Shown here piece by piece: positions 3-7,986 of a stretch of DNA of 7,986 bases. Every line of letters begins with the position of its first letter. Positions within the stretch are counted from its first letter, which is position 1. Source of the stretch: Naegleria gruberi (taxonomy: Eukaryota). The stretch lies in NCBI GenBank assembly GCA_000004985.1, contig GG739098.1; one strand, given 5' to 3'. The notes under the pieces are model-generated. The model had not been told where the DNA came from. It saw only the letters and a program-made list of their open reading frames with translations, and did not search any database. Made by a program: the position numbers and the translations under genes.

Positions 3-1343
3 GAAGGAGGCTCAAAAGATGATTATTCTTATGGAGCTAAGAATAATAATAATCAATTCATATCAATTTTTGGAAGCCTTGGCTTAAATCCAAAATTTGA
101 TGGCAAGAATGTTCCTGTTGCTGTGTCAACTGCATCCAATGGATTCATTGCTTATTTAACAGATCCAAATTATTGTAATGGAATTGCTAGTAATAATGAG
201 ACTGTTTGTAATGGTCATGGTCAATGTCAAAAAGATGGCAGTTGCCTTTGTAGTTCAGGTTTTGGTGATCAGTGTGAATTCCCAACTTGTAACGAAATCC
301 ACTTTAATGAAACAAATGTGTGTAATGGATATGGTAACTGCACTTCTTATGATACTTGTTCCTGTAATGCTGGATGGTCTGGTCAATACTGTACCGATTT
401 TTTTACTTGTTATTCAATTGCCTCATATAATAGCTCTGTTTGTTCTGGAAATGGTTTATGTTATGCATCAAATAAGTGTAAATGTAATGATGGATGGACT
501 GGATCTAATTGTGATATGTATACCTGTTTTGGTATTGCAGCAGATAATGCCACTGTTTGTAGCAGACATGGTACTTGCAATTCTGATCATACTTGTACAT
601 GCAACGGAGATTGGACTGGTGATAATTGTAATATACCTATTTGTTTTGGTTTTAGTGGAGGGGAAAGTTGCAGTCAACATGGTTCCTGTATTTCAAATAA
701 TACTTGTCAATGTAATAATGGATGGTTTGGAGCTGATTGTTCAATTCATTCATGTAATGGAACAAGCTCTCAAGATTTACAAAATGTTTGTAATAGAGGA
801 AGAGGTCAATGTGTTGACACTGATCTTTGCTCATGTAATGAAACATGGACAGGTCAATTATGTGAAATTCCTAAATGTTTTGGAGTGAATTCAAGTGATA
901 TTTCAGTTTGTTCAAGTCATGGTCAATGTATTAATGCTGACACTTGTCATTGTAATAAGGGATGGTTTGGTAGTAACTGCTCAATTCATTCGTGTAATGG
1001 AACTAGTTCACAAGATGTGAAAAACGTTTGTAATGGAGGAAATGGTCAGTGCATTGGAACAGAGTTGTGTTTGTGTAACCAAAATTGGGCTGGTCAGTTC
1101 TGTACTATTCCTAAATGTTATGGCGTTATTTCTACAGACGCTACAGTTTGCTCTACTCATGGTAACTGTACTGATGTTAATACTTGCCAATGTAATACAG
1201 GTTGGTTTGGTCCATTATGTAATGTTCACTCCTGTAATGGAACAATCTCACAAGATGTAAAACACGTCTGCAATGAGGGTAATGGAGAATGCATTCAAAT
1301 GGATAAGTGTGATTGTAAATCTGGCTGGACAGGCCAGTTCTGT
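3..1343 (+). CDS. Cysteine-rich EGF-like (tenascin-type) repeat protein, probably secreted or a surface glycoprotein. It is partial at both ends: the 5' end lies upstream of the window and the 3' end runs into the N gap.
   Basis: Frame 3 (positions 3,6,9...) is open from the first base to the last complete codon, tgt at 1341-1343, with no stop. There is no in-frame ATG before the repeats begin, so the true start is upstream of the window. The GTG at 123 used by the ORF track is a tool artefact. Translation gives ten tandem modules: YCNGIASNNETVCNGHGQCQKDGSCLCSSGFGDQCEFPT / CNEIHFNETNVCNGYGNCTSYDTCSCNAGWSGQYCTDFFT / ... / CNGTISQDVKHVCNEGNGECIQMDKCDCKSGWTGQFC. Each has 6 conserved Cys and the classic EGF C-x-C-x(2)-G-[WF]-x-G-x(2)-C tail. 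At least 13 N-x-[ST] sequons are present (NET, NCT, NSS, NAT, NGT...). The alternate frames contain only hydrophobic junk. Confidence 0.85.
174..1343 (+). repeat. Array of ten tandem EGF-like module repeats, period about 111-123 nt (37-41 codons), truncated by the gap.
   Basis: Module starts fall at the first-Cys codon tgt: 174, 288, 408, 525, 642, 753, 876, 993, 1116 and 1233. Modules 1-2 and 6, 8 and 10 are b-type (CN...VCNxGxGxC ... WxGQxCxIPK). Modules 3-5, 7 and 9 are a-type (C[FY]G...VCSxHGxC ... GWFGxxCxxHS). Confidence 0.85.
753..1343 (+). repeat. Higher-order tandem repeat with an exact 240-bp (80-codon, b+a module pair) period, about 2.5 copies before the gap.
   Basis: CNGT(S/I)SQD starts at 753, 993 and 1233, so the spacing is exactly 240 nt twice. 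Copy 1 vs copy 2 are about 50/80 identical at the amino-acid level by hand alignment, with all Cys, GW-G and IPKC/HSC linkers conserved. Copy 3 (partial) vs copy 2 is about 25/37 identical. The DNA is visibly alignable, for example ggatggtttgg...tcaattcattc[ag]tgtaatggaac at 720 and 960. Confidence 0.8.
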
Positions 1344-4300
1344 NNNNNNNNNNNNNNNNNNNNNNNNNNNNNNNNNNNNNNNNNNNNNNNNNNNNNNNNN
1401 NNNNNNNNNNNNNNNNNNNNNNNNNNNNNNNNNNNNNNNNNNNNNNNNNNNNNNNNNNNNNNNNNNNNNNNNNNNNNNNNNNNNNNNNNNNNNNNNNNNN
1501 NNNNNNNNNNNNNNNNNNNNNNNNNNNNNNNNNNNNNNNNNNNNNNNNNNNNNNNNNNNNNNNNNNNNNNNNNNNNNNNNNNNNNNNNNNNNNNNNNNNN
1601 NNNNNNNNNNNNNNNNNNNNNNNNNNNNNNNNNNNNNNNNNNNNNNNNNNNNNNNNNNNNNNNNNNNNNNNNNNNNNNNNNNNNNNNNNNNNNNNNNNNN
1701 NNNNNNNNNNNNNNNNNNNNNNNNNNNNNNNNNNNNNNNNNNNNNNNNNNNNNNNNNNNNNNNNNNNNNNNNNNNNNNNNNNNNNNNNNNNNNNNNNNNN
1801 NNNNNNNNNNNNNNNNNNNNNNNNNNNNNNNNNNNNNNNNNNNNNNNNNNNNNNNNNNNNNNNNNNNNNNNNNNNNNNNNNNNNNNNNNNNNNNNNNNNN
1901 NNNNNNNNNNNNNNNNNNNNNNNNNNNNNNNNNNNNNNNNNNNNNNNNNNNNNNNNNNNNNNNNNNNNNNNNNNNNNNNNNNNNNNNNNNNNNNNNNNNN
2001 NNNNNNNNNNNNNNNNNNNNNNNNNNNNNNNNNNNNNNNNNNNNNNNNNNNNNNNNNNNNNNNNNNNNNNNNNNNNNNNNNNNNNNNNNNNNNNNNNNNN
2101 NNNNNNNNNNNNNNNNNNNNNNNNNNNNNNNNNNNNNNNNNNNNNNNNNNNNNNNNNNNNNNNNNNNNNNNNNNNNNNNNNNNNNNNNNNNNNNNNNNNN
2201 NNNNNNNNNNNNNNNNNNNNNNNNNNNNNNNNNNNNNNNNNNNNNNNNNNNNNNNNNNNNNNNNNNNNNNNNNNNNNNNNNNNNNNNNNNNNNNNNNNNN
2301 NNNNNNNNNNNNNNNNNNNNNNNNNNNNNNNNNNNNNNNNNNNNNNNNNNNNNNNNNNNNNNNNNNNNNNNNNNNNNNNNNNNNNNNNNNNNNNNNNNNN
2401 NNNNNNNNNNNNNNNNNNNNNNNNNNNNNNNNNNNNNNNNNNNNNNNNNNNNNNNNNNNNNNNNNNNNNNNNNNNNNNNNNNNNNNNNNNNNNNNNNNNN
2501 NNNNNNNNNNNNNNNNNNNNNNNNNNNNNNNNNNNNNNNNNNNNNNNNNNNNNNNNNNNNNNNNNNNNNNNNNNNNNNNNNNNNNNNNNNNNNNNNNNNN
2601 NNNNNNNNNNNNNNNNNNNNNNNNNNNNNNNNNNNNNNNNNNNNNNNNNNNNNNNNNNNNNNNNNNNNNNNNNNNNNNNNNNNNNNNNNNNNNNNNNNNN
2701 NNNNNNNNNNNNNNNNNNNNNNNNNNNNNNNNNNNNNNNNNNNNNNNNNNNNNNNNNNNNNNNNNNNNNNNNNNNNNNNNNNNNNNNNNNNNNNNNNNNN
2801 NNNNNNNNNNNNNNNNNNNNNNNNNNNNNNNNNNNNNNNNNNNNNNNNNNNNNNNNNNNNNNNNNNNNNNNNNNNNNNNNNNNNNNNNNNNNNNNNNNNN
2901 NNNNNNNNNNNNNNNNNNNNNNNNNNNNNNNNNNNNNNNNNNNNNNNNNNNNNNNNNNNNNNNNNNNNNNNNNNNNNNNNNNNNNNNNNNNNNNNNNNNN
3001 NNNNNNNNNNNNNNNNNNNNNNNNNNNNNNNNNNNNNNNNNNNNNNNNNNNNNNNNNNNNNNNNNNNNNNNNNNNNNNNNNNNNNNNNNNNNNNNNNNNN
3101 NNNNNNNNNNNNNNNNNNNNNNNNNNNNNNNNNNNNNNNNNNNNNNNNNNNNNNNNNNNNNNNNNNNNNNNNNNNNNNNNNNNNNNNNNNNNNNNNNNNN
3201 NNNNNNNNNNNNNNNNNNNNNNNNNNNNNNNNNNNNNNNNNNNNNNNNNNNNNNNNNNNNNNNNNNNNNNNNNNNNNNNNNNNNNNNNNNNNNNNNNNNN
3301 NNNNNNNNNNNNNNNNNNNNNNNNNNNNNNNNNNNNNNNNNNNNNNNNNNNNNNNNNNNNNNNNNNNNNNNNNNNNNNNNNNNNNNNNNNNNNNNNNNNN
3401 NNNNNNNNNNNNNNNNNNNNNNNNNNNNNNNNNNNNNNNNNNNNNNNNNNNNNNNNNNNNNNNNNNNNNNNNNNNNNNNNNNNNNNNNNNNNNNNNNNNN
3501 NNNNNNNNNNNNNNNNNNNNNNNNNNNNNNNNNNNNNNNNNNNNNNNNNNNNNNNNNNNNNNNNNNNNNNNNNNNNNNNNNNNNNNNNNNNNNNNNNNNN
3601 NNNNNNNNNNNNNNNNNNNNNNNNNNNNNNNNNNNNNNNNNNNNNNNNNNNNNNNNNNNNNNNNNNNNNNNNNNNNNNNNNNNNNNNNNNNNNNNNNNNN
3701 NNNNNNNNNNNNNNNNNNNNNNNNNNNNNNNNNNNNNNNNNNNNNNNNNNNNNNNNNNNNNNNNNNNNNNNNNNNNNNNNNNNNNNNNNNNNNNNNNNNN
3801 NNNNNNNNNNNNNNNNNNNNNNNNNNNNNNNNNNNNNNNNNNNNNNNNNNNNNNNNNNNNNNNNNNNNNNNNNNNNNNNNNNNNNNNNNNNNNNNNNNNN
3901 NNNNNNNNNNNNNNNNNNNNNNNNNNNNNNNNNNNNNNNNNNNNNNNNNNNNNNNNNNNNNNNNNNNNNNNNNNNNNNNNNNNNNNNNNNNNNNNNNNNN
4001 NNNNNNNNNNNNNNNNNNNNNNNNNNNNNNNNNNNNNNNNNNNNNNNNNNNNNNNNNNNNNNNNNNNNNNNNNNNNNNNNNNNNNNNNNNNNNNNNNNNN
4101 NNNNNNNNNNNNNNNNNNNNNNNNNNNNNNNNNNNNNNNNNNNNNNNNNNNNNNNNNNNNNNNNNNNNNNNNNNNNNNNNNNNNNNNNNNNNNNNNNNNN
4201 NNNNNNNNNNNNNNNNNNNNNNNNNNNNNNNNNNNNNNNNNNNNNNNNNNNNNNNNNNNNNNNNNNNNNNNNNNNNNNNNNNNNNNNNNNNNNNNNNNNN

Positions 4301-6496
4301 NNNNNNNNNNNNNNNNNNNNNNNNNNNNNNNNNNNNNNNNNNNNNNNNNNNNNNNNNNNNNNNNNNNNNNNNNNNNNNNNNNNNNNNNNNNNNNNNNNNN
4401 NNNNNNNNNNNNNNNNNNNNNNNNNNNNNNNNNNNNNNNNNNNNNNNNNNNNNNNNNNNNNNNNNNNNNNNNNNNNNNNNNNNNNNNNNNNNNNNNNNNN
4501 NNNNNNNNNNNNNNNNNNNNNNNNNNNNNNNNNNNNNNNNNNNNNNNNNNNNNNNNNNNNNNNNNNNNNNNNNNNNNNNNNNNNNNNNNNNNNNNNNNNN
4601 NNNNNNNNNNNNNNNNNNNNNNNNNNNNNNNNNNNNNNNNNNNNNNNNNNNNNNNNNNNNNNNNNNNNNNNNNNNNNNNNNNNNNNNNNNNNNNNNNNNN
4701 NNNNNNNNNNNNNNNNNNNNNNNNNNNNNNNNNNNNNNNNNNNNNNNNNNNNNNNNNNNNNNNNNNNNNNNNNNNNNNNNNNNNNNNNNNNNNNNNNNNN
4801 NNNNNNNNNNNNNNNNNNNNNNNNNNNNNNNNNNNNNNNNNNNNNNNNNNNNNNNNNNNNNNNNNNNNNNNNNNNNNNNNNNNNNNNNNNNNNNNNNNNN
4901 NNNNNNNNNNNNNNNNNNNNNNNNNNNNNNNNNNNNNNNNNNNNNNNNNNNNNNNNNNNNNNNNNNNNNNNNNNNNNNNNNNNNNNNNNNNNNNNNNNNN
5001 NNNNNNNNNNNNNNNNNNNNNNNNNNNNNNNNNNNNNNNNNNNNNNNNNNNNNNNNNNNNNNNNNNNNNNNNNNNNNNNNNNNNNNNNNNNNNNNNNNNN
5101 NNNNNNNNNNNNNNNNNNNNNNNNNNNNNNNNNNNNNNNNNNNNNNNNNNNNNNNNNNNNNNNNNNNNNNNNNNNNNNNNNNNNNNNNNNNNNNNNNNNN
5201 NNNNNNNNNNNNNNNNNNNNNNNNNNNNNNNNNNNNNNNNNNNNNNNNNNNNNNNNNNNNNNNNNNNNNNNNNNNNNNNNNNNNNNNNNNNNNNNNNNNN
5301 NNNNNNNNNNNNNNNNNNNNNNNNNNNNNNNNNNNNNNNNNNNNNNNNNNNNNNNNNNNNNNNNNNNNNNNNNNNNNNNNNNNNNNNNNNNNNNNNNNNN
5401 NNNNNNNNNNNNNNNNNNNNNNNNNNNNNNNNNNNNNNNNNNNNNNNNNNNNNNNNNNNNNNNNNNNNNNNNNNNNNNNNNNNNNNNNNNNNNNNNNNNN
5501 NNNNNNNNNNNNNNNNNNNNNNNNNNNNNNNNNNNNNNNNNNNNNNNNNNNNNNNNNNNNNNNNNNNNNNNNNNNNNNNNNNNNNNNNNNNNNNNNNNNN
5601 NNNNNNNNNNNNNNNNNNNNNNNNNNNNNNNNNNNNNNNNNNNNNNNNNNNNNNNNNNNNNNNNNNNNNNNNNNNNNNNNNNNNNNNNNNNNNNNNNNNN
5701 NNNNNNNNNNNNNNNNNNNNNNNNNNNNNNNNNNNNNNNNNNNNNNNNNNNNNNNNNNNNNNNNNNNNNNNNNNNNNNNNNNNNNNNNNNNNNNNNNNNN
5801 NNNNNNNNNNNNNNNNNNNNNNNNNNNNNNNNNNNNNNNNNNNNNNNNNNNNNNNNNNNNNNNNNNNNNNNNNNNNNNNNNNNNNNNNNNNNNNNNNNNN
5901 NNNNNNNNNNNNNNNNNNNNNNNNNNNNNNNNNNNNNNNNNNNNNNNNNNNNNNNNNNNNNNNNNNNNNNNNNNNNNNNNNNNNNNNNNNNNNNNNNNNN
6001 NNNNNNNNNNNNNNNNNNNNNNNNNNNNNNNNNNNNNNNNNNNNNNNNNNNNNNNNNNNNNNNNNNNNNNNNNNNNNNNNNNNNNNNNNNNNNNNNNNNN
6101 NNNNNNNNNNNNNNNNNNNNNNNNNNNNNNNNNNNNNNNNNNNNNNNNNNNNNNNNNNNNNNNNNNNNNNNNNNNNNNNNNNNNNNNNNNNNNNNNNNNN
6201 NNNNNNNNNNNNNNNNNNNNNNNNNNNNNNNNNNNNNNNNNNNNNNNNNNNNNNNNNNNNNNNNNNNNNNNNNNNNNNNNNNNNNNNNNNNNNNNNNNNN
6301 NNNNNNNNNNNNNNNNNNNNNNNNNNNNNNNNNNNNNNNNNNNNNNNNNNNNNNNNNNNNNNNNNNNNNNNNNNNNNNNNNNNNNNNNNNNNNNNNNNNN
6401 NNNNNNNNNNNNNNNNNNNNNNNNNNNNNNNNNNNNNNNNNNNNNNNNNNNNNNNNNNNNNNNNNNNNNNNNNNNNNNNNNNNNNNNNNNNNNNNN
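1344..6496. other. Assembly gap of 5,153 N bases. The size is probably an estimate. The frame relationship across it is unknowable.
   Basis: Uninterrupted run of n from 1344 to 6496. It is flanked on the left by a tandem-repeat coding array that is cut mid-module. Confidence 0.99.
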
Positions 6497-6498
6497 CC

Positions 6499-6735
6499 GA
6501 ATTATGGAACAAATTCGAAGGAACTACGTTTATAATTGCTTATCTTACAATTCAAGGTCAATCATCTCGTGTTGAAGCCTTGAGACCATCCCTTCAATTT
6601 TGGGCCAATATTGAGAGAATAGTTTTTCCAATTTCATGGTCTTATGATAATATTAAAAGAGAAATTACTCTTATTTGGTCCTTGATTGATAGAAAAGCTT
6701 TGAAACGTGACCCAATTTTCTATCATCATATATAA
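6499..6735 (+). CDS. Hypothetical protein, C-terminal 78 residues plus stop. It is 5'-partial, with the upstream part in the gap. It may be the non-repetitive C-terminus of the EGF-repeat protein or a separate gene.
   Basis: It is the only frame open across the whole post-gap stretch (first full codon 6499), ending at TAA 6733-6735. In sequence of this AT content a 79-codon stop-free frame is unlikely by chance, with a rough expectation well below 1%. Third codon positions are strongly A/T-biased, like the neighbouring genes. Codon choices (caa, ggt/gga, aga, cca, ttg/ctt) match the locus. The product ELWNKFEGTTFIIAYLTIQGQSSRVEALRPSLQFWANIERIVFPISWSYDNIKREITLIWSLIDRKALKRDPIFYHHI has no Cys, no clear TM segment and no recognisable domain. 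Confidence 0.4.
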   Translation, partial: ELWNKFEGTTFIIAYLTIQGQSSRVEALRPSLQFWANIERIVFPISWSYDNIKREITLIWSLIDRKALKRDPIFYHHI

Positions 6736-6940
6736 AAGATCATTACTAAGCTTAGAAATGGTAACATCAAATTATCTCAGTGGTCACAAAACAGATTTAT
6801 GGAAAAGCCGACAAGAATTTAAACCTTCAAATTTACATCATTAATAGATCATAAAAATACAATCAATCTTCACTAAGTAATATCTTTAATAACCCAAATA
6901 AGTCAACTCGAATTCCAAACCAAACCTTTTGAGGTGTTCA

Positions 6941-6952
6941 TTTATTTTTTTT
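6941..6952 (-). promoter_or_regulatory. Second AATAAA followed by an A8 run on the minus strand (T-run TTTATTTTTTTT on +). It could be an alternative distal poly(A) signal for actin, or a T-rich downstream element for the + strand gene.
   Basis: tttattttttttg at 6941-6953 on + corresponds to caaaaaaaataaa on -. It lies about 210 nt from either stop codon in the convergent intergenic region. Confidence 0.15.
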
Positions 6953-7110
6953 GCCAATGAAATATTGTCTAGCTCTCTAATTTCAATCGTTGCCTTCCCC
7001 ATCGCTAACTACTTGACAATTTAAAAAGGTTCACACACCTGGGCCCACCAAACAAACCATGGAGATTCCAAAAATCAAGTCATTTTTGAAAAATTCATTT
7101 AAATTACAGA

Positions 7111-7116
7111 TTTATT
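7111..7116 (-). promoter_or_regulatory. Candidate poly(A) signal AATAAA for the actin transcript, 39 nt downstream of the actin stop on the minus strand.
   Basis: The + strand tttatt at 7111-7116 is aataaa on the - strand, inside the sense sequence gtaaaaataaatctgtaattt. Whether this organism uses AAUAAA is unknown. Confidence 0.25.
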
Positions 7117-7154
7117 TTTACAGAGCTCGATAGTTGACTATACAAAGTGCCAAT

Positions 7155-7986
7155 TTAGAAACACTTTCTGTGAACGATACCTGGACCGGCATCCTCATAT
7201 TCTTCCTTTGTGATCCACATCTGCTGAAAGGTCGAAAGGCTCGCTAAGATGGAACCTCCAATCCAGACAGAGTACTTTCTTTCTGGTGGAGCAACAACCT
7301 TAATCTTCATTGAGGCAGGAGCCATAGCAGTCAATTCCTTGGTCATTCTTTCAGCAATACCTTCGAACATGGTAGTACCACCAGACAAGACAACGTTACC
7401 GTACAAATCCTTTCTGATATCAATATCACATTTACCAATTGAATTGAAAGTAGTTTCATGAACACCAGCAGCTTCCATACCAATAAAGTTTGGTTGGAAC
7501 AAAACTTCTGGACATCTGAATCTTTCATTACCAACAGTGATAACATTACCATCTGGCAATTCGTATGATTTTTCAACTGAGGATGATTCAGCAGCAACCT
7601 TCATTTCAGCTTCAAAGTCCAAAGCAATATAACAGAGCTTTTCCTTAATATCTCTGACGATTTCTCTTTCAGCAGTTGTGTTGAATGAGTAACCTCTTTC
7701 CATCAAAATCTTCATCAAGTAATCAGTCAAGTCACGACCAGCCAAATCCAATCTCAAAATAGCGTGTGGCAAAGCATAACCTTCATAAATTGGAACAGTG
7801 TGAGAAACACCATCACCAGAGTCCAAAACAATACCAGTAGTTCTACCAGAAGCATACAAGGACAAGACAGCTTGAATGGCAACATACATAGCTGGAACTG
7901 AGAAGGTTTCAAACATGATTTGAGTCATCTTTTCACGATTTGCCTTTGGATTCAAAGGAGCTTCAGTCAACAAGACTGGATGTTCT
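7155..7986 (-). CDS. Actin, conventional. The C-terminal ~277 codons are present. The N-terminal ~100 codons lie beyond the window end. No intron in this portion.
   Basis: The minus-strand translation is unmistakably actin: (EHPV)[24 protein letters not shown]...[13 protein letters not shown]...[15 protein letters not shown]...[23 protein letters not shown]...[50 protein letters not shown], then TAA (+ strand tta at 7155-7157). Codons 7974-7985 continue the actin sequence (E-H-P-V), so the ORF-track start at 7973 is a TTG tool artefact. By recollection it is about 85-90% identical to vertebrate cytoplasmic actin. Codon usage is strongly biased (Leu almost all TTG, Arg AGA, Gly GGT, Ala GCT, Pro CCA, Gln CAA), as expected for a highly expressed gene. 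Confidence 0.97.

What the first reader, a model, noticed from the sequence alone, without database searches (positions are those of the whole stretch)
3..6496. Very large tandemly repetitive EGF-like surface-protein gene that the assembly could not close
The coding array of 6-Cys EGF-like modules is still in perfect register when it hits the gap. Module 10 is cut after its sixth Cys, and the exact 240-bp higher-order period has just been established. The missing 5 kb therefore most likely contains many more copies (about 21 more 240-bp units if the gap estimate is right). That implies a >2,000-residue secreted or surface glycoprotein. Dense N-x-S/T sequons and the absence of any hydrophobic stretch in the visible part support an extracellular location. 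Such long, internally repetitive Cys-rich proteins in protists are typically adhesins, cyst or cell-wall components or variant surface antigens. They are systematically under-described because short-read assemblies break on them. The visible copies are only about 60-70% identical, so collapse is not a foregone conclusion. Deeper copies may be more similar, which would explain the gap.
Basis: partly seen in the sequence, partly recalled or inferred. Interest (0 to 1): 0.6.

Follow-up and report, generated by a model that had tools for sequence, protein, structure and literature searches.

The report
Naegleria EGF-repeat surface gene, gap-truncated
This is an ordinary EGF-repeat surface glycoprotein gene of the amoeba Naegleria that runs into a scaffold gap, and the far side of the gap is a decayed retrotransposon recombinase gene rather than more EGF repeats, so a giant protein of over 2,000 residues is not supported.

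Summary
Positions 3-1343 are one open frame of 447 codons. It encodes ten 6-Cys EGF-like modules (Pfam EGF_Teneurin and EGF_2, ten stretches each). The last five or six modules form a 240-bp two-module super-repeat. An N-run at 1344-6496 begins directly after Cys6 of module 10.

The best relative is a partial Naegleria gruberi protein, XP_002668614.1, 92% identical over the first 145 residues. It supplies the missing 5' part: a hydrophobic leader and a ~440-aa beta-rich domain.

The claim that the gap holds about 21 more units is not supported.
- The repeat copies are old: dS 1.3-1.6, 65-73% DNA identity, and a longest exact repeat of 14 nt.
- Identity does not rise toward the gap.
- The ORF leaving the gap (6499-6735) has no Cys. 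It is homologous to the N-terminal domain of tyrosine recombinases.
- One of those homologues sits behind RT and Dam-like methyltransferase domains on a metagenome contig, which is the layout of a DIRS/PAT-like retrotransposon.
- A conventional actin gene follows on the minus strand.

The gap must therefore hold the EGF gene's 3' end plus non-EGF sequence, possibly several kb of retroelement. This is an ordinary member of a known kind, of low interest.

The parts
3..173 (+). C-terminal end of the non-EGF, beta-rich N-terminal ectodomain. The gene starts upstream of the window.
   Evidence: It is collinear with residues 445-500 of P0001 (XP_002668614.1, N. gruberi) at 92% identity. It has no Pfam match.
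174..752 (+). EGF-like modules 1-5, each with six Cys, 37-40 codons per module including linker
   Evidence: Cys map and module table. Pfam EGF_Teneurin and EGF_2 stretches.
753..1343 (+). EGF-like modules 6-10. They form a 240-bp super-repeat in which a long 'CNGT...' module alternates with a short 'CFGV/CYGV' module. Module 10 ends at Cys6 on the gap edge.
   Evidence: TRF period 240, 2.4 copies, 74% matches. Copies lie exactly 240 nt apart. dN 0.20-0.35 and dS 1.3-1.6 between copies.
1344..6496 (.). Scaffold gap of 5153 N with unknown content. It must contain the 3' end of the EGF gene and the 5' part of the recombinase-like ORF.
   Evidence: N-run coordinates. ORFs are open on both gap edges.
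6499..6735 (+). 3' part of a Cys-free ORF, 78 codons plus a stop at 6733-6735. It is homologous to the N-terminal (core-binding) domain of tyrosine recombinases. It is not part of the EGF protein.
   Evidence: Exhaustive HMMER search: P0061 E 1.6e-14 (52% identity), P0065 E 2.6e-5, P0067 E 7e-4. P0065 carries Pfam Phage_integrase in its C-terminal half. tblastn of P0065 residues 37-111 gives E 6e-13. Alignment A1.
6764..6802 (+). Probable frameshifted remnant of the recombinase catalytic domain ('NGNIKL' and 'LSGHKTD' in two frames). It marks the copy as decayed.
   Evidence: tblastn 'LSGHKTDLW' against P0065 166-174, 7 of 9 identical, E 0.12. A frameshift-corrected peptide assembled after seeing the hit matches P0065 158-174 at 11 of 17, pairwise E 1e-5. 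This is suggestive only.
7155..7986 (-). Neighbouring conventional actin gene, residues ~100-375 plus a stop at 7155-7157. It converges on the recombinase relic.
   Evidence: Pfam Actin 9.4e-108. PDB actins E ~1e-166, aligned to residues 100-375. Coordinates.

Best explanation
The left contig carries the middle of a Naegleria gene for a secreted or membrane-anchored glycoprotein. It is a paralogue or alternative haplotype of N. gruberi XP_002668614.1.

By analogy with that relative, the protein begins upstream of the window with a hydrophobic leader and a ~440-aa beta-rich domain of unknown fold. It then continues into a rod of at least 10 compact EGF modules of the tenascin/teneurin type, which do not bind calcium. 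Each module is expected to be locked by three disulfides and carries a recurrent N-glycosylation sequon in the C1-C2 loop.

The last modules arose by old tandem duplication of a two-module 240-bp unit and have since evolved under purifying selection. The array most plausibly acts as a rigid glycosylated stalk. It would hold the N-terminal domain away from the cell surface for adhesion or for recognising prey or substrate.

The gene is interrupted by a scaffolding gap. The gap is not simply more of the same array. Its right side lies in a decayed tyrosine-recombinase ORF of the kind carried at the 3' end of DIRS/PAT-like retrotransposons. The gap therefore holds the end of the EGF gene plus at least about 0.1-0.4 kb, and possibly 3 kb or more, of unrelated and possibly dispersed-repeat sequence.

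Shown: module anatomy, family membership, the taxon of the relatives, the age of the repeats, and the homology of the right-flank ORF.

Inferred: leader peptide, disulfide pattern, stalk function, C-terminal anchor, and the extent of retroelement in the gap.
For: - One open frame with ten 6-Cys modules.
- Pfam EGF_Teneurin, EGF_2 and EGF_TEN all score above their curated cut-offs, and no calcium-binding EGF family is listed at E<=1.
- 92% identity to N. gruberi P0001, whose N-terminus is hydrophobic.
- The complete N. gruberi family member P0004 has a leader, nine EGF modules and a C-terminal hydrophobic segment in 550 aa.
- The Acrasis relative has NPCBM and Jacalin-like lectin domains ahead of its EGF array.
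- The 240-bp period is real.
- dS is 1.3-1.6 with dN/dS about 0.15-0.25, the longest exact repeat is 14 nt, and identity shows no gradient toward the gap: 6v8 73%, 8v10 70%; 5v7 69%, 7v9 67%.
- The right-flank ORF is homologous to the tyrosine-recombinase N-domain.
- The homologue P0069 is ORF3 of a 4.1-kb contig, behind a 635-aa ORF with RVT_1 (1.9e-19) and Dam-like methyltransferase (4.6e-5) matches.
- Degraded DIRS1-like sequences are reported in N. gruberi (PMC3266345).
Against: - The gap cannot be read, so continuation of the array for several kb is not excluded.
- The recombinase ORF is a decayed fragment: its catalytic domain is missing and only ~420 nt separate it from the actin stop. 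It may be a short solitary relic rather than the end of a multi-kb element.
- The closest relative of that ORF, P0061 (223 aa), also lacks a catalytic domain, so it could belong to a small host gene.
- The leader peptide and N-terminal domain are inferred from a relative, not seen in the window.
- The AlphaFold model of P0001 was unusable (pLDDT 34.6), so the N-terminal fold is unknown.
- No experiment addresses function.
Confidence: 0.8

Rival explanations
1. The gap is almost entirely more 240-bp EGF super-repeat units, about 18-21 of them. The protein exceeds 2,000 residues, and the assembly broke because deeper copies are nearly identical.
For: - The array is in register and still open at the gap edge.
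- The 240-bp period is real.
- The related N. gruberi gene P0001 is also cut at a scaffold end inside its EGF array.
- If the N-terminal 444 aa of P0001 are added, 891 aa are already accounted for. About 4.4 kb more array would fit the nominal gap.
Against: - The right edge of the gap lies in an unrelated recombinase-like ORF.
- Copies are ancient (dS saturated) and do not become more similar toward the gap. No exact repeat exceeds 14 nt.
- The complete N. gruberi family member P0004 has only nine modules.
- A N. fowleri EGF-like protein reported in a secretome is ~105 kDa.
Confidence: 0.12
2. The right-flank ORF is the end of a small host gene: a domesticated, catalytically dead recombinase N-domain protein like the 223-aa P0061. 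It is not a transposon relic. Under this reading the gap holds ordinary genes and intergenic DNA and says nothing about repeats.
For: - P0061 is the closest relative (52% identity, E 1.6e-14). It ends at nearly the same point and lacks a catalytic domain.
- The window ORF is intact over 78 codons in AT-rich DNA.
Against: - P0061 comes from an unnamed sequencing run with no context, so it may itself be a truncated element copy.
- More distant relatives are full recombinases, and one sits in an RT-MT-YR element.
- A frameshifted catalytic-domain remnant appears to follow the stop.
Confidence: 0.2
3. The window's gene and P0001 are two haplotypes of one locus. Both assembly breaks reflect haplotype divergence or low coverage rather than any repeat.
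For: - The two are 92% identical in protein and collinear with a 2-aa indel.
- P0001 sits on a 12.9-kb mini-scaffold that ends in module 3.
Against: - 8% amino-acid divergence is high for alleles.
- No DNA of the P0001 scaffold could be retrieved, so synteny could not be checked.
Confidence: 0.25

Closest known systems
Naegleria gruberi predicted protein XP_002668614.1 / EFC35870.1 (P0001)
   Same: It is 92% identical over the last 57 residues of the N-terminal domain and EGF modules 1-3, with the same module spacing and sequon positions.
   Different: It is not the same sequence: there is a 2-aa indel and 12 substitutions in 145 aa. It is truncated earlier, in module 3, by a scaffold end. It supplies the N-terminus that the window lacks.
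Heterolobosean EGF-repeat surface proteins, e.g. N. gruberi P0004 (550 aa, complete), N. lovaniensis C9374_011802, and the Acrasis kona 'von Willebrand factor D and EGF domain-containing protein'
   Same: They share the module type C-x10-C-x5-C-x5-C-x-C-x8-C with an N-x-S/T before C2. They are 38-41% identical over the best local alignment (50-68% of the query) and match the same Pfam families.
   Different: Each has a different N-terminal domain; the Acrasis protein has NPCBM and Jacalin-like domains. P0004 has nine modules and a visible C-terminal anchor. The window gene has at least ten modules and a clear two-module super-repeat, and its end is unseen.
Animal tenascin/teneurin EGF-like repeat arrays (Pfam EGF_Teneurin PF23106, EGF_TEN PF25024)
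   Same: These are contiguous, compact EGF modules that do not bind calcium and form a rod. The profiles match above their curated cut-offs.
   Different: The relative shows none of the other teneurin or tenascin domains: no type II N-terminal domain, NHL or YD shell, fibronectin III, or fibrinogen globe. The C1-C2 loop is longer (8-11 residues) and glycosylated. The resemblance is at module level only.
DIRS/PAT-like tyrosine-recombinase retrotransposons (right flank only)
   Same: The ORF at 6499-6735 aligns with the N-terminal domain of recombinases. One of these (P0069, in the same 90%-identity cluster as P0065) lies 3' of an RT plus Dam-like methyltransferase ORF on contig L002.
   Different: The window copy lacks the catalytic domain. 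No RT, gag or terminal repeats are visible, because they would lie in the gap. Identity to the element-borne recombinase is only ~35%.

Membership tests
EGF-like domain (Pfam EGF_2 PF07974 / EGF_Teneurin PF23106) | Six cysteines per ~30-40-residue module with C-x-C at positions 4-5, scoring above the curated Pfam threshold | tested here: met
   Ten modules with 60 Cys in regular spacing. EGF_2 scores 134.5 bits against 22.1, and EGF_Teneurin 152 bits against 24.3, with ten stretches each.
EGF-like domain (Pfam EGF_2 PF07974 / EGF_Teneurin PF23106) | Disulfide pattern C1-C3, C2-C4, C5-C6 and the two-hairpin fold | not testable with these tools
   It is inferred from family knowledge. No usable structure model was obtained; the P0001 model had pLDDT 34.6.
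Calcium-binding EGF (EGF_CA) | An N-terminal D/N-x-D/N-E/Q-C consensus and a Pfam EGF_CA match | tested here: not met
   No EGF_CA family appears among the Pfam hits at E<=1. Modules start with C[NFY]G/E, with no acidic consensus.
Teneurin | Type II membrane protein with an intracellular N-terminal domain, eight EGF modules, an NHL propeller, a YD shell and a toxin-like C-terminus | tested here: not met
   Only the EGF profiles match. The N-terminal 467 aa of relative P0001 match no Pfam family at E<=10. The C-terminus is unseen.
Secreted or surface glycoprotein | An N-terminal signal peptide | tested here: inconclusive
   The window lacks the 5' end. The 92%-identical relative P0001 begins with a hydrophobic segment (Kyte-Doolittle 1.82 over residues 1-19). 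No dedicated signal-peptide predictor was available.
Secreted or surface glycoprotein | A membrane anchor (transmembrane segment or GPI signal) or a free C-terminus | not testable with these tools
   The 3' end lies in the gap. The complete N. gruberi family member P0004 ends in a hydrophobic segment at 531-550.
Tyrosine recombinase (Pfam Phage_integrase PF00589), right-flank ORF | A catalytic domain with the R-K-H-R-H/W-Y residues | tested here: not met
   The window ORF has no Pfam hit and covers only the N-terminal domain, aligning to P0065 residues 37-111. Only a frameshifted 'SGHKTD' remnant follows. Only ~420 nt remain before the actin stop.
DIRS/PAT-like retrotransposon, right-flank ORF | An RT/RNase H (with or without methyltransferase) ORF upstream of the recombinase, plus terminal repeats | not testable with these tools
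   The upstream sequence is in the gap. In homologue locus L002 the order is ORF1, then RVT_1 with Dam-like MT, then the recombinase. No terminal-type repeats were found in 6497-7986.

The most novel reading that the evidence does not exclude
The array really does continue through most of the gap. That would make this one of a class of giant Naegleria surface proteins (over 2,000 aa) built from dozens of two-module EGF super-repeats behind an orphan ~440-aa beta-rich domain, a class that draft assemblies systematically break on and annotations miss.
Probability: 0.1. Interest if true: 0.4.

Novelty: new member of a known kind. Interest (0 to 1): 0.15.

Why it matters
The value is mostly in curation.
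- The gene is a further copy of an already annotated but uncharacterised family of Naegleria EGF-repeat surface proteins.
- The gap should not be read as hidden repeat copies.
- Gene models that bridge this gap would fuse a surface-protein gene with a retroelement relic.

For Naegleria biology the family is a reasonable candidate for adhesion or prey recognition. An EGF-like protein of ~105 kDa was reported in N. fowleri secretion products (PMC12089049). Nothing here makes that testable beyond what is already known.

Tried and rejected
- Word-indexed protein search with the 78-aa right-flank ORF found nothing. The exhaustive HMMER search was needed.
- Search with the N-terminal 500 aa of P0001 returned only P0001 itself, so no orthologue from long-read Naegleria assemblies was available to show the full architecture.
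- Looking up the contig that encodes P0001 found no record, so synteny and haplotig status could not be tested.
- AlphaFold on P0001 without an alignment gave pLDDT 34.6. It was unusable, so no fold search was run.
- My initial idea that the N-terminal domain is an SBBP-type beta-propeller got no support from Pfam, even at E<=10.
- A metagenome scan for close relatives gave only 28-32% identical EGF proteins on short contigs.
- There are no tRNAs.
- The only Rfam match is a sub-threshold mir-3533 hit inside the actin coding sequence: 30.5 bits against a gathering score of 104. I dismissed it.
- I rejected the idea that 6499-6735 is the cytoplasmic tail of the EGF protein. It has no Cys and no hydrophobic segment, and it is homologous to recombinase N-domains.
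- Frame continuity across the gap is uninformative, because the N count is only an estimate. At the nominal length the EGF frame would hit a stop at 6575.
Full report
**Layout.** The window has three parts. There are 1,343 bases of sequence, then a single run of 5,153 N (1344-6496), then 1,490 bases of sequence. G+C is about 35% on the left and 27-42% on the right.

**Checking the observation.**
- On the left contig only frame 3 of the + strand is open: 0 stops in 447 codons. The other five frames have 5-73 stops.
- The product has 60 cysteines, which fall into ten modules with spacing C-x8-11-C-x5-6-C-x5-C-x-C-x7-8-C and 4-5-residue linkers. The sixth Cys of module 10 is codon 1341-1343, the last bases before the N-run.
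- Pfam matches ten stretches each of EGF_Teneurin (152 bits, cut-off 24.3) and EGF_2 (134.5 bits, cut-off 22.1). EGF_TEN scores 111 bits against a cut-off of 65. No calcium-binding EGF family is listed at E<=1.
- From module 5 or 6 onward, long 'CNGTSSQD..' modules alternate with short 'CFGV/CYGV..' modules. TRF reports period 240 over 698-1278, 2.4 copies, 74% matches. The repeat finder finds three copies spaced exactly 240 and 240 nt.
- No 19-residue window is hydrophobic; the maximum Kyte-Doolittle mean is 0.79.
- The 13 N-x-S/T sequons are not more than composition predicts: 9.3 +/- 2.6, with 220 of 2000 shuffles reaching 13. They do recur at fixed positions.

The description is therefore confirmed.

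**What the gene is.**
- The best database relative is 'predicted protein, partial [Naegleria gruberi]' (P0001 = XP_002668614.1 / EFC35870.1). It is 92% identical over window residues 1-145.
- The next hits are EGF-repeat proteins of N. gruberi, N. lovaniensis, Acrasis kona and Percolomonas, at 38-41% identity. The organism is therefore a heterolobosean, most likely N. gruberi or a very close relative.
- P0001 shows what lies upstream of the window. It has a hydrophobic N-terminus (Kyte-Doolittle 1.82 over residues 1-19) and a ~440-residue region of which the window's first 57 residues are the tail. That region has no Pfam match even at E<=10 and no other homologue in the word-indexed search.
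- P0001 is itself cut off in EGF module 3, at the end of a 12.9-kb scaffold.
- A complete N. gruberi family member, P0004 (550 aa), has a leader, an N-terminal domain, nine EGF modules and a C-terminal hydrophobic segment.
- The Acrasis protein has NPCBM and Jacalin-like lectin domains in front of its EGF array.

The family pattern is a variable N-terminal domain, sometimes with lectin-like matches, on a stalk of EGF modules, with a membrane anchor in the one complete member examined. I infer the same for the window gene. It would be a surface glycoprotein whose disulfide-locked, glycosylated EGF rod presents the N-terminal domain for adhesion or recognition. This is inference from architecture, and no experiment bears on it.

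**Does the array fill the gap?** Three results argue that it does not.

1. The visible super-repeat copies are old.
   - dS is 1.3-1.6, which is saturated. dN is 0.20-0.35. DNA identity is 65-73%.
   - The longest exact repeat anywhere in 1-1343 is 14 nt.
   - Nothing in the visible array would trouble an assembler.
2. Identity does not rise toward the gap.
   - Modules 6 v 8 are 73% identical and 8 v 10 are 70%.
   - Modules 5 v 7 are 69% identical and 7 v 9 are 67%.
3. The sequence leaving the gap is not EGF.
   - Positions 6499-6735 are the last 78 codons of a + strand ORF with no cysteine at all.
   - It has no Pfam hit and no word-indexed homologue.
   - An exhaustive HMMER scan of 1.84 billion representatives finds P0061 (E 1.6e-14, 52% identity), P0065 (E 2.6e-5) and P0067 (E 7e-4). 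The other four hits are repetitive proteins matched in many short stretches, and I disregard them.
   - P0065 has a Pfam Phage_integrase catalytic domain at residues 142-286. The window ORF aligns to its N-terminal domain, residues 37-111 (pairwise tblastn E 6e-13; alignment A1).
   - P0069, in the same 90%-identity cluster as P0065, is the third ORF of a 4.1-kb metagenome contig. It follows a 399-aa partial ORF and a 635-aa ORF with RVT_1 (1.9e-19) and a Dam-like methyltransferase match (4.6e-5, below Pfam's cut-off).
   - The order 'ORF1, then RT and MT, then tyrosine recombinase' is that of DIRS/PAT-like retrotransposons. This assignment rests on my own knowledge of those elements.
   - Degraded DIRS1-like sequences have been reported in N. 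gruberi (PMC3266345).

**State of the window's recombinase copy.** It is decayed. The frame stops soon after the N-terminal domain. Only a frameshifted 'NGNIKL/LSGHKTD' patch resembles the catalytic domain (E 0.12 on its own). A peptide I assembled after seeing that hit scores 11 of 17 identities, which is suggestive only. Just ~420 nt remain before the stop codon of the next gene.

**Consequences for the gap.**
- The gap must contain the 3' end of the EGF gene, an intergenic stretch, and the 5' part of the recombinase-like ORF.
- That 5' part is at least ~36 codons by alignment with P0065, or ~143 codons by alignment with P0061.
- If the relic is the end of a largely complete element, at least ~3.2 kb lies upstream of the aligned point, going by L002.
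- With the N-terminal 444 aa taken from P0001, 891 residues are already accounted for.
- A total above 2,000 residues would need nearly all of the nominal gap to be array and the relic to be a short fragment. I put that at roughly 10-12%.
- The N count is an estimate, so frame arguments across the gap carry no weight. At face value the EGF frame would stop at 6575.
- Why the assembly broke cannot be decided here. Candidates are a dispersed retroelement, confusion between this locus and the 92%-identical P0001 locus (paralogue or haplotig), and low coverage.

**Neighbour.** The minus strand from 7986 down to 7158 encodes residues ~100-375 of a conventional actin, with a stop at 7155-7157. Support is Pfam Actin at 9.4e-108, PDB actins at E ~1e-166 and coordinates. 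The actin gene converges on the recombinase relic.

**Comparison with known families.**
- At module level the gene is a bona fide member of the EGF_2 and Teneurin-type EGF families and works like the tenascin/teneurin EGF rods.
- It is not a teneurin or a tenascin, because none of their other defining domains is present.
- It is not calcium-binding EGF.
- Its closest kin are the automatically annotated but experimentally uncharacterised heterolobosean 'EGF-like domain-containing proteins'. One such protein (~105 kDa) is listed among proteins identified in N. fowleri secretion products (PMC12089049).

**Verdict.** Its headline claim, a giant protein with about 21 hidden units, is unsupported. 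The gene is a new member of a known kind and of low general interest. The main practical lesson is that the gap flanks belong to two different genes, and one of them looks like a mobile-element relic.

Noticed in passing
window 6499-6735 (+), remnant 6764-6802: A Cys-free ORF leaves the gap. It is homologous to the N-terminal domain of tyrosine recombinases, at least one of which is retrotransposon-borne. The catalytic domain is lost apart from a frameshifted 'NGNIKL/SGHKTD' patch. It is probably a decayed DIRS/PAT-like element copy.
   Followed up: yes
window 7155-7986 (-): A conventional actin gene covering residues ~100-375 plus its stop. It has no intron over this span and converges on the recombinase relic ~420 nt away.
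   Followed up: partly
window 7398-7481 (-): An Rfam mir-3533 match (30.5 bits, gathering score 104) lies inside the actin coding sequence. It is far below threshold, and I dismissed it as not a real miRNA.
   Followed up: partly
P0001 (XP_002668614.1, N. gruberi; outside the window): The 92%-identical relative is itself truncated in EGF module 3 at the end of a 12.9-kb scaffold. It is either a recent paralogue or an unmerged haplotype of the window gene. Its ~440-aa N-terminal domain has no Pfam match and no detectable homologue.
   Followed up: partly
L002 1-4131 (ENA metagenome contig k141_831046): A retroelement with a partial 399-aa ORF1, a 635-aa ORF with RVT_1 plus a Dam-like adenine methyltransferase match, and a 306-aa tyrosine recombinase. 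The ORFs overlap by a few bases to ~44 nt. This is a DIRS/PAT-like layout from an unidentified eukaryote.
   Followed up: partly
P0061 (223 aa, from run SRR3989338): This is the closest relative of the right-flank ORF. It also ends shortly after the 'LKRD' motif and lacks a catalytic domain. That leaves open a family of recombinase N-domain-only proteins, or a shared intron or truncation point.
   Followed up: no
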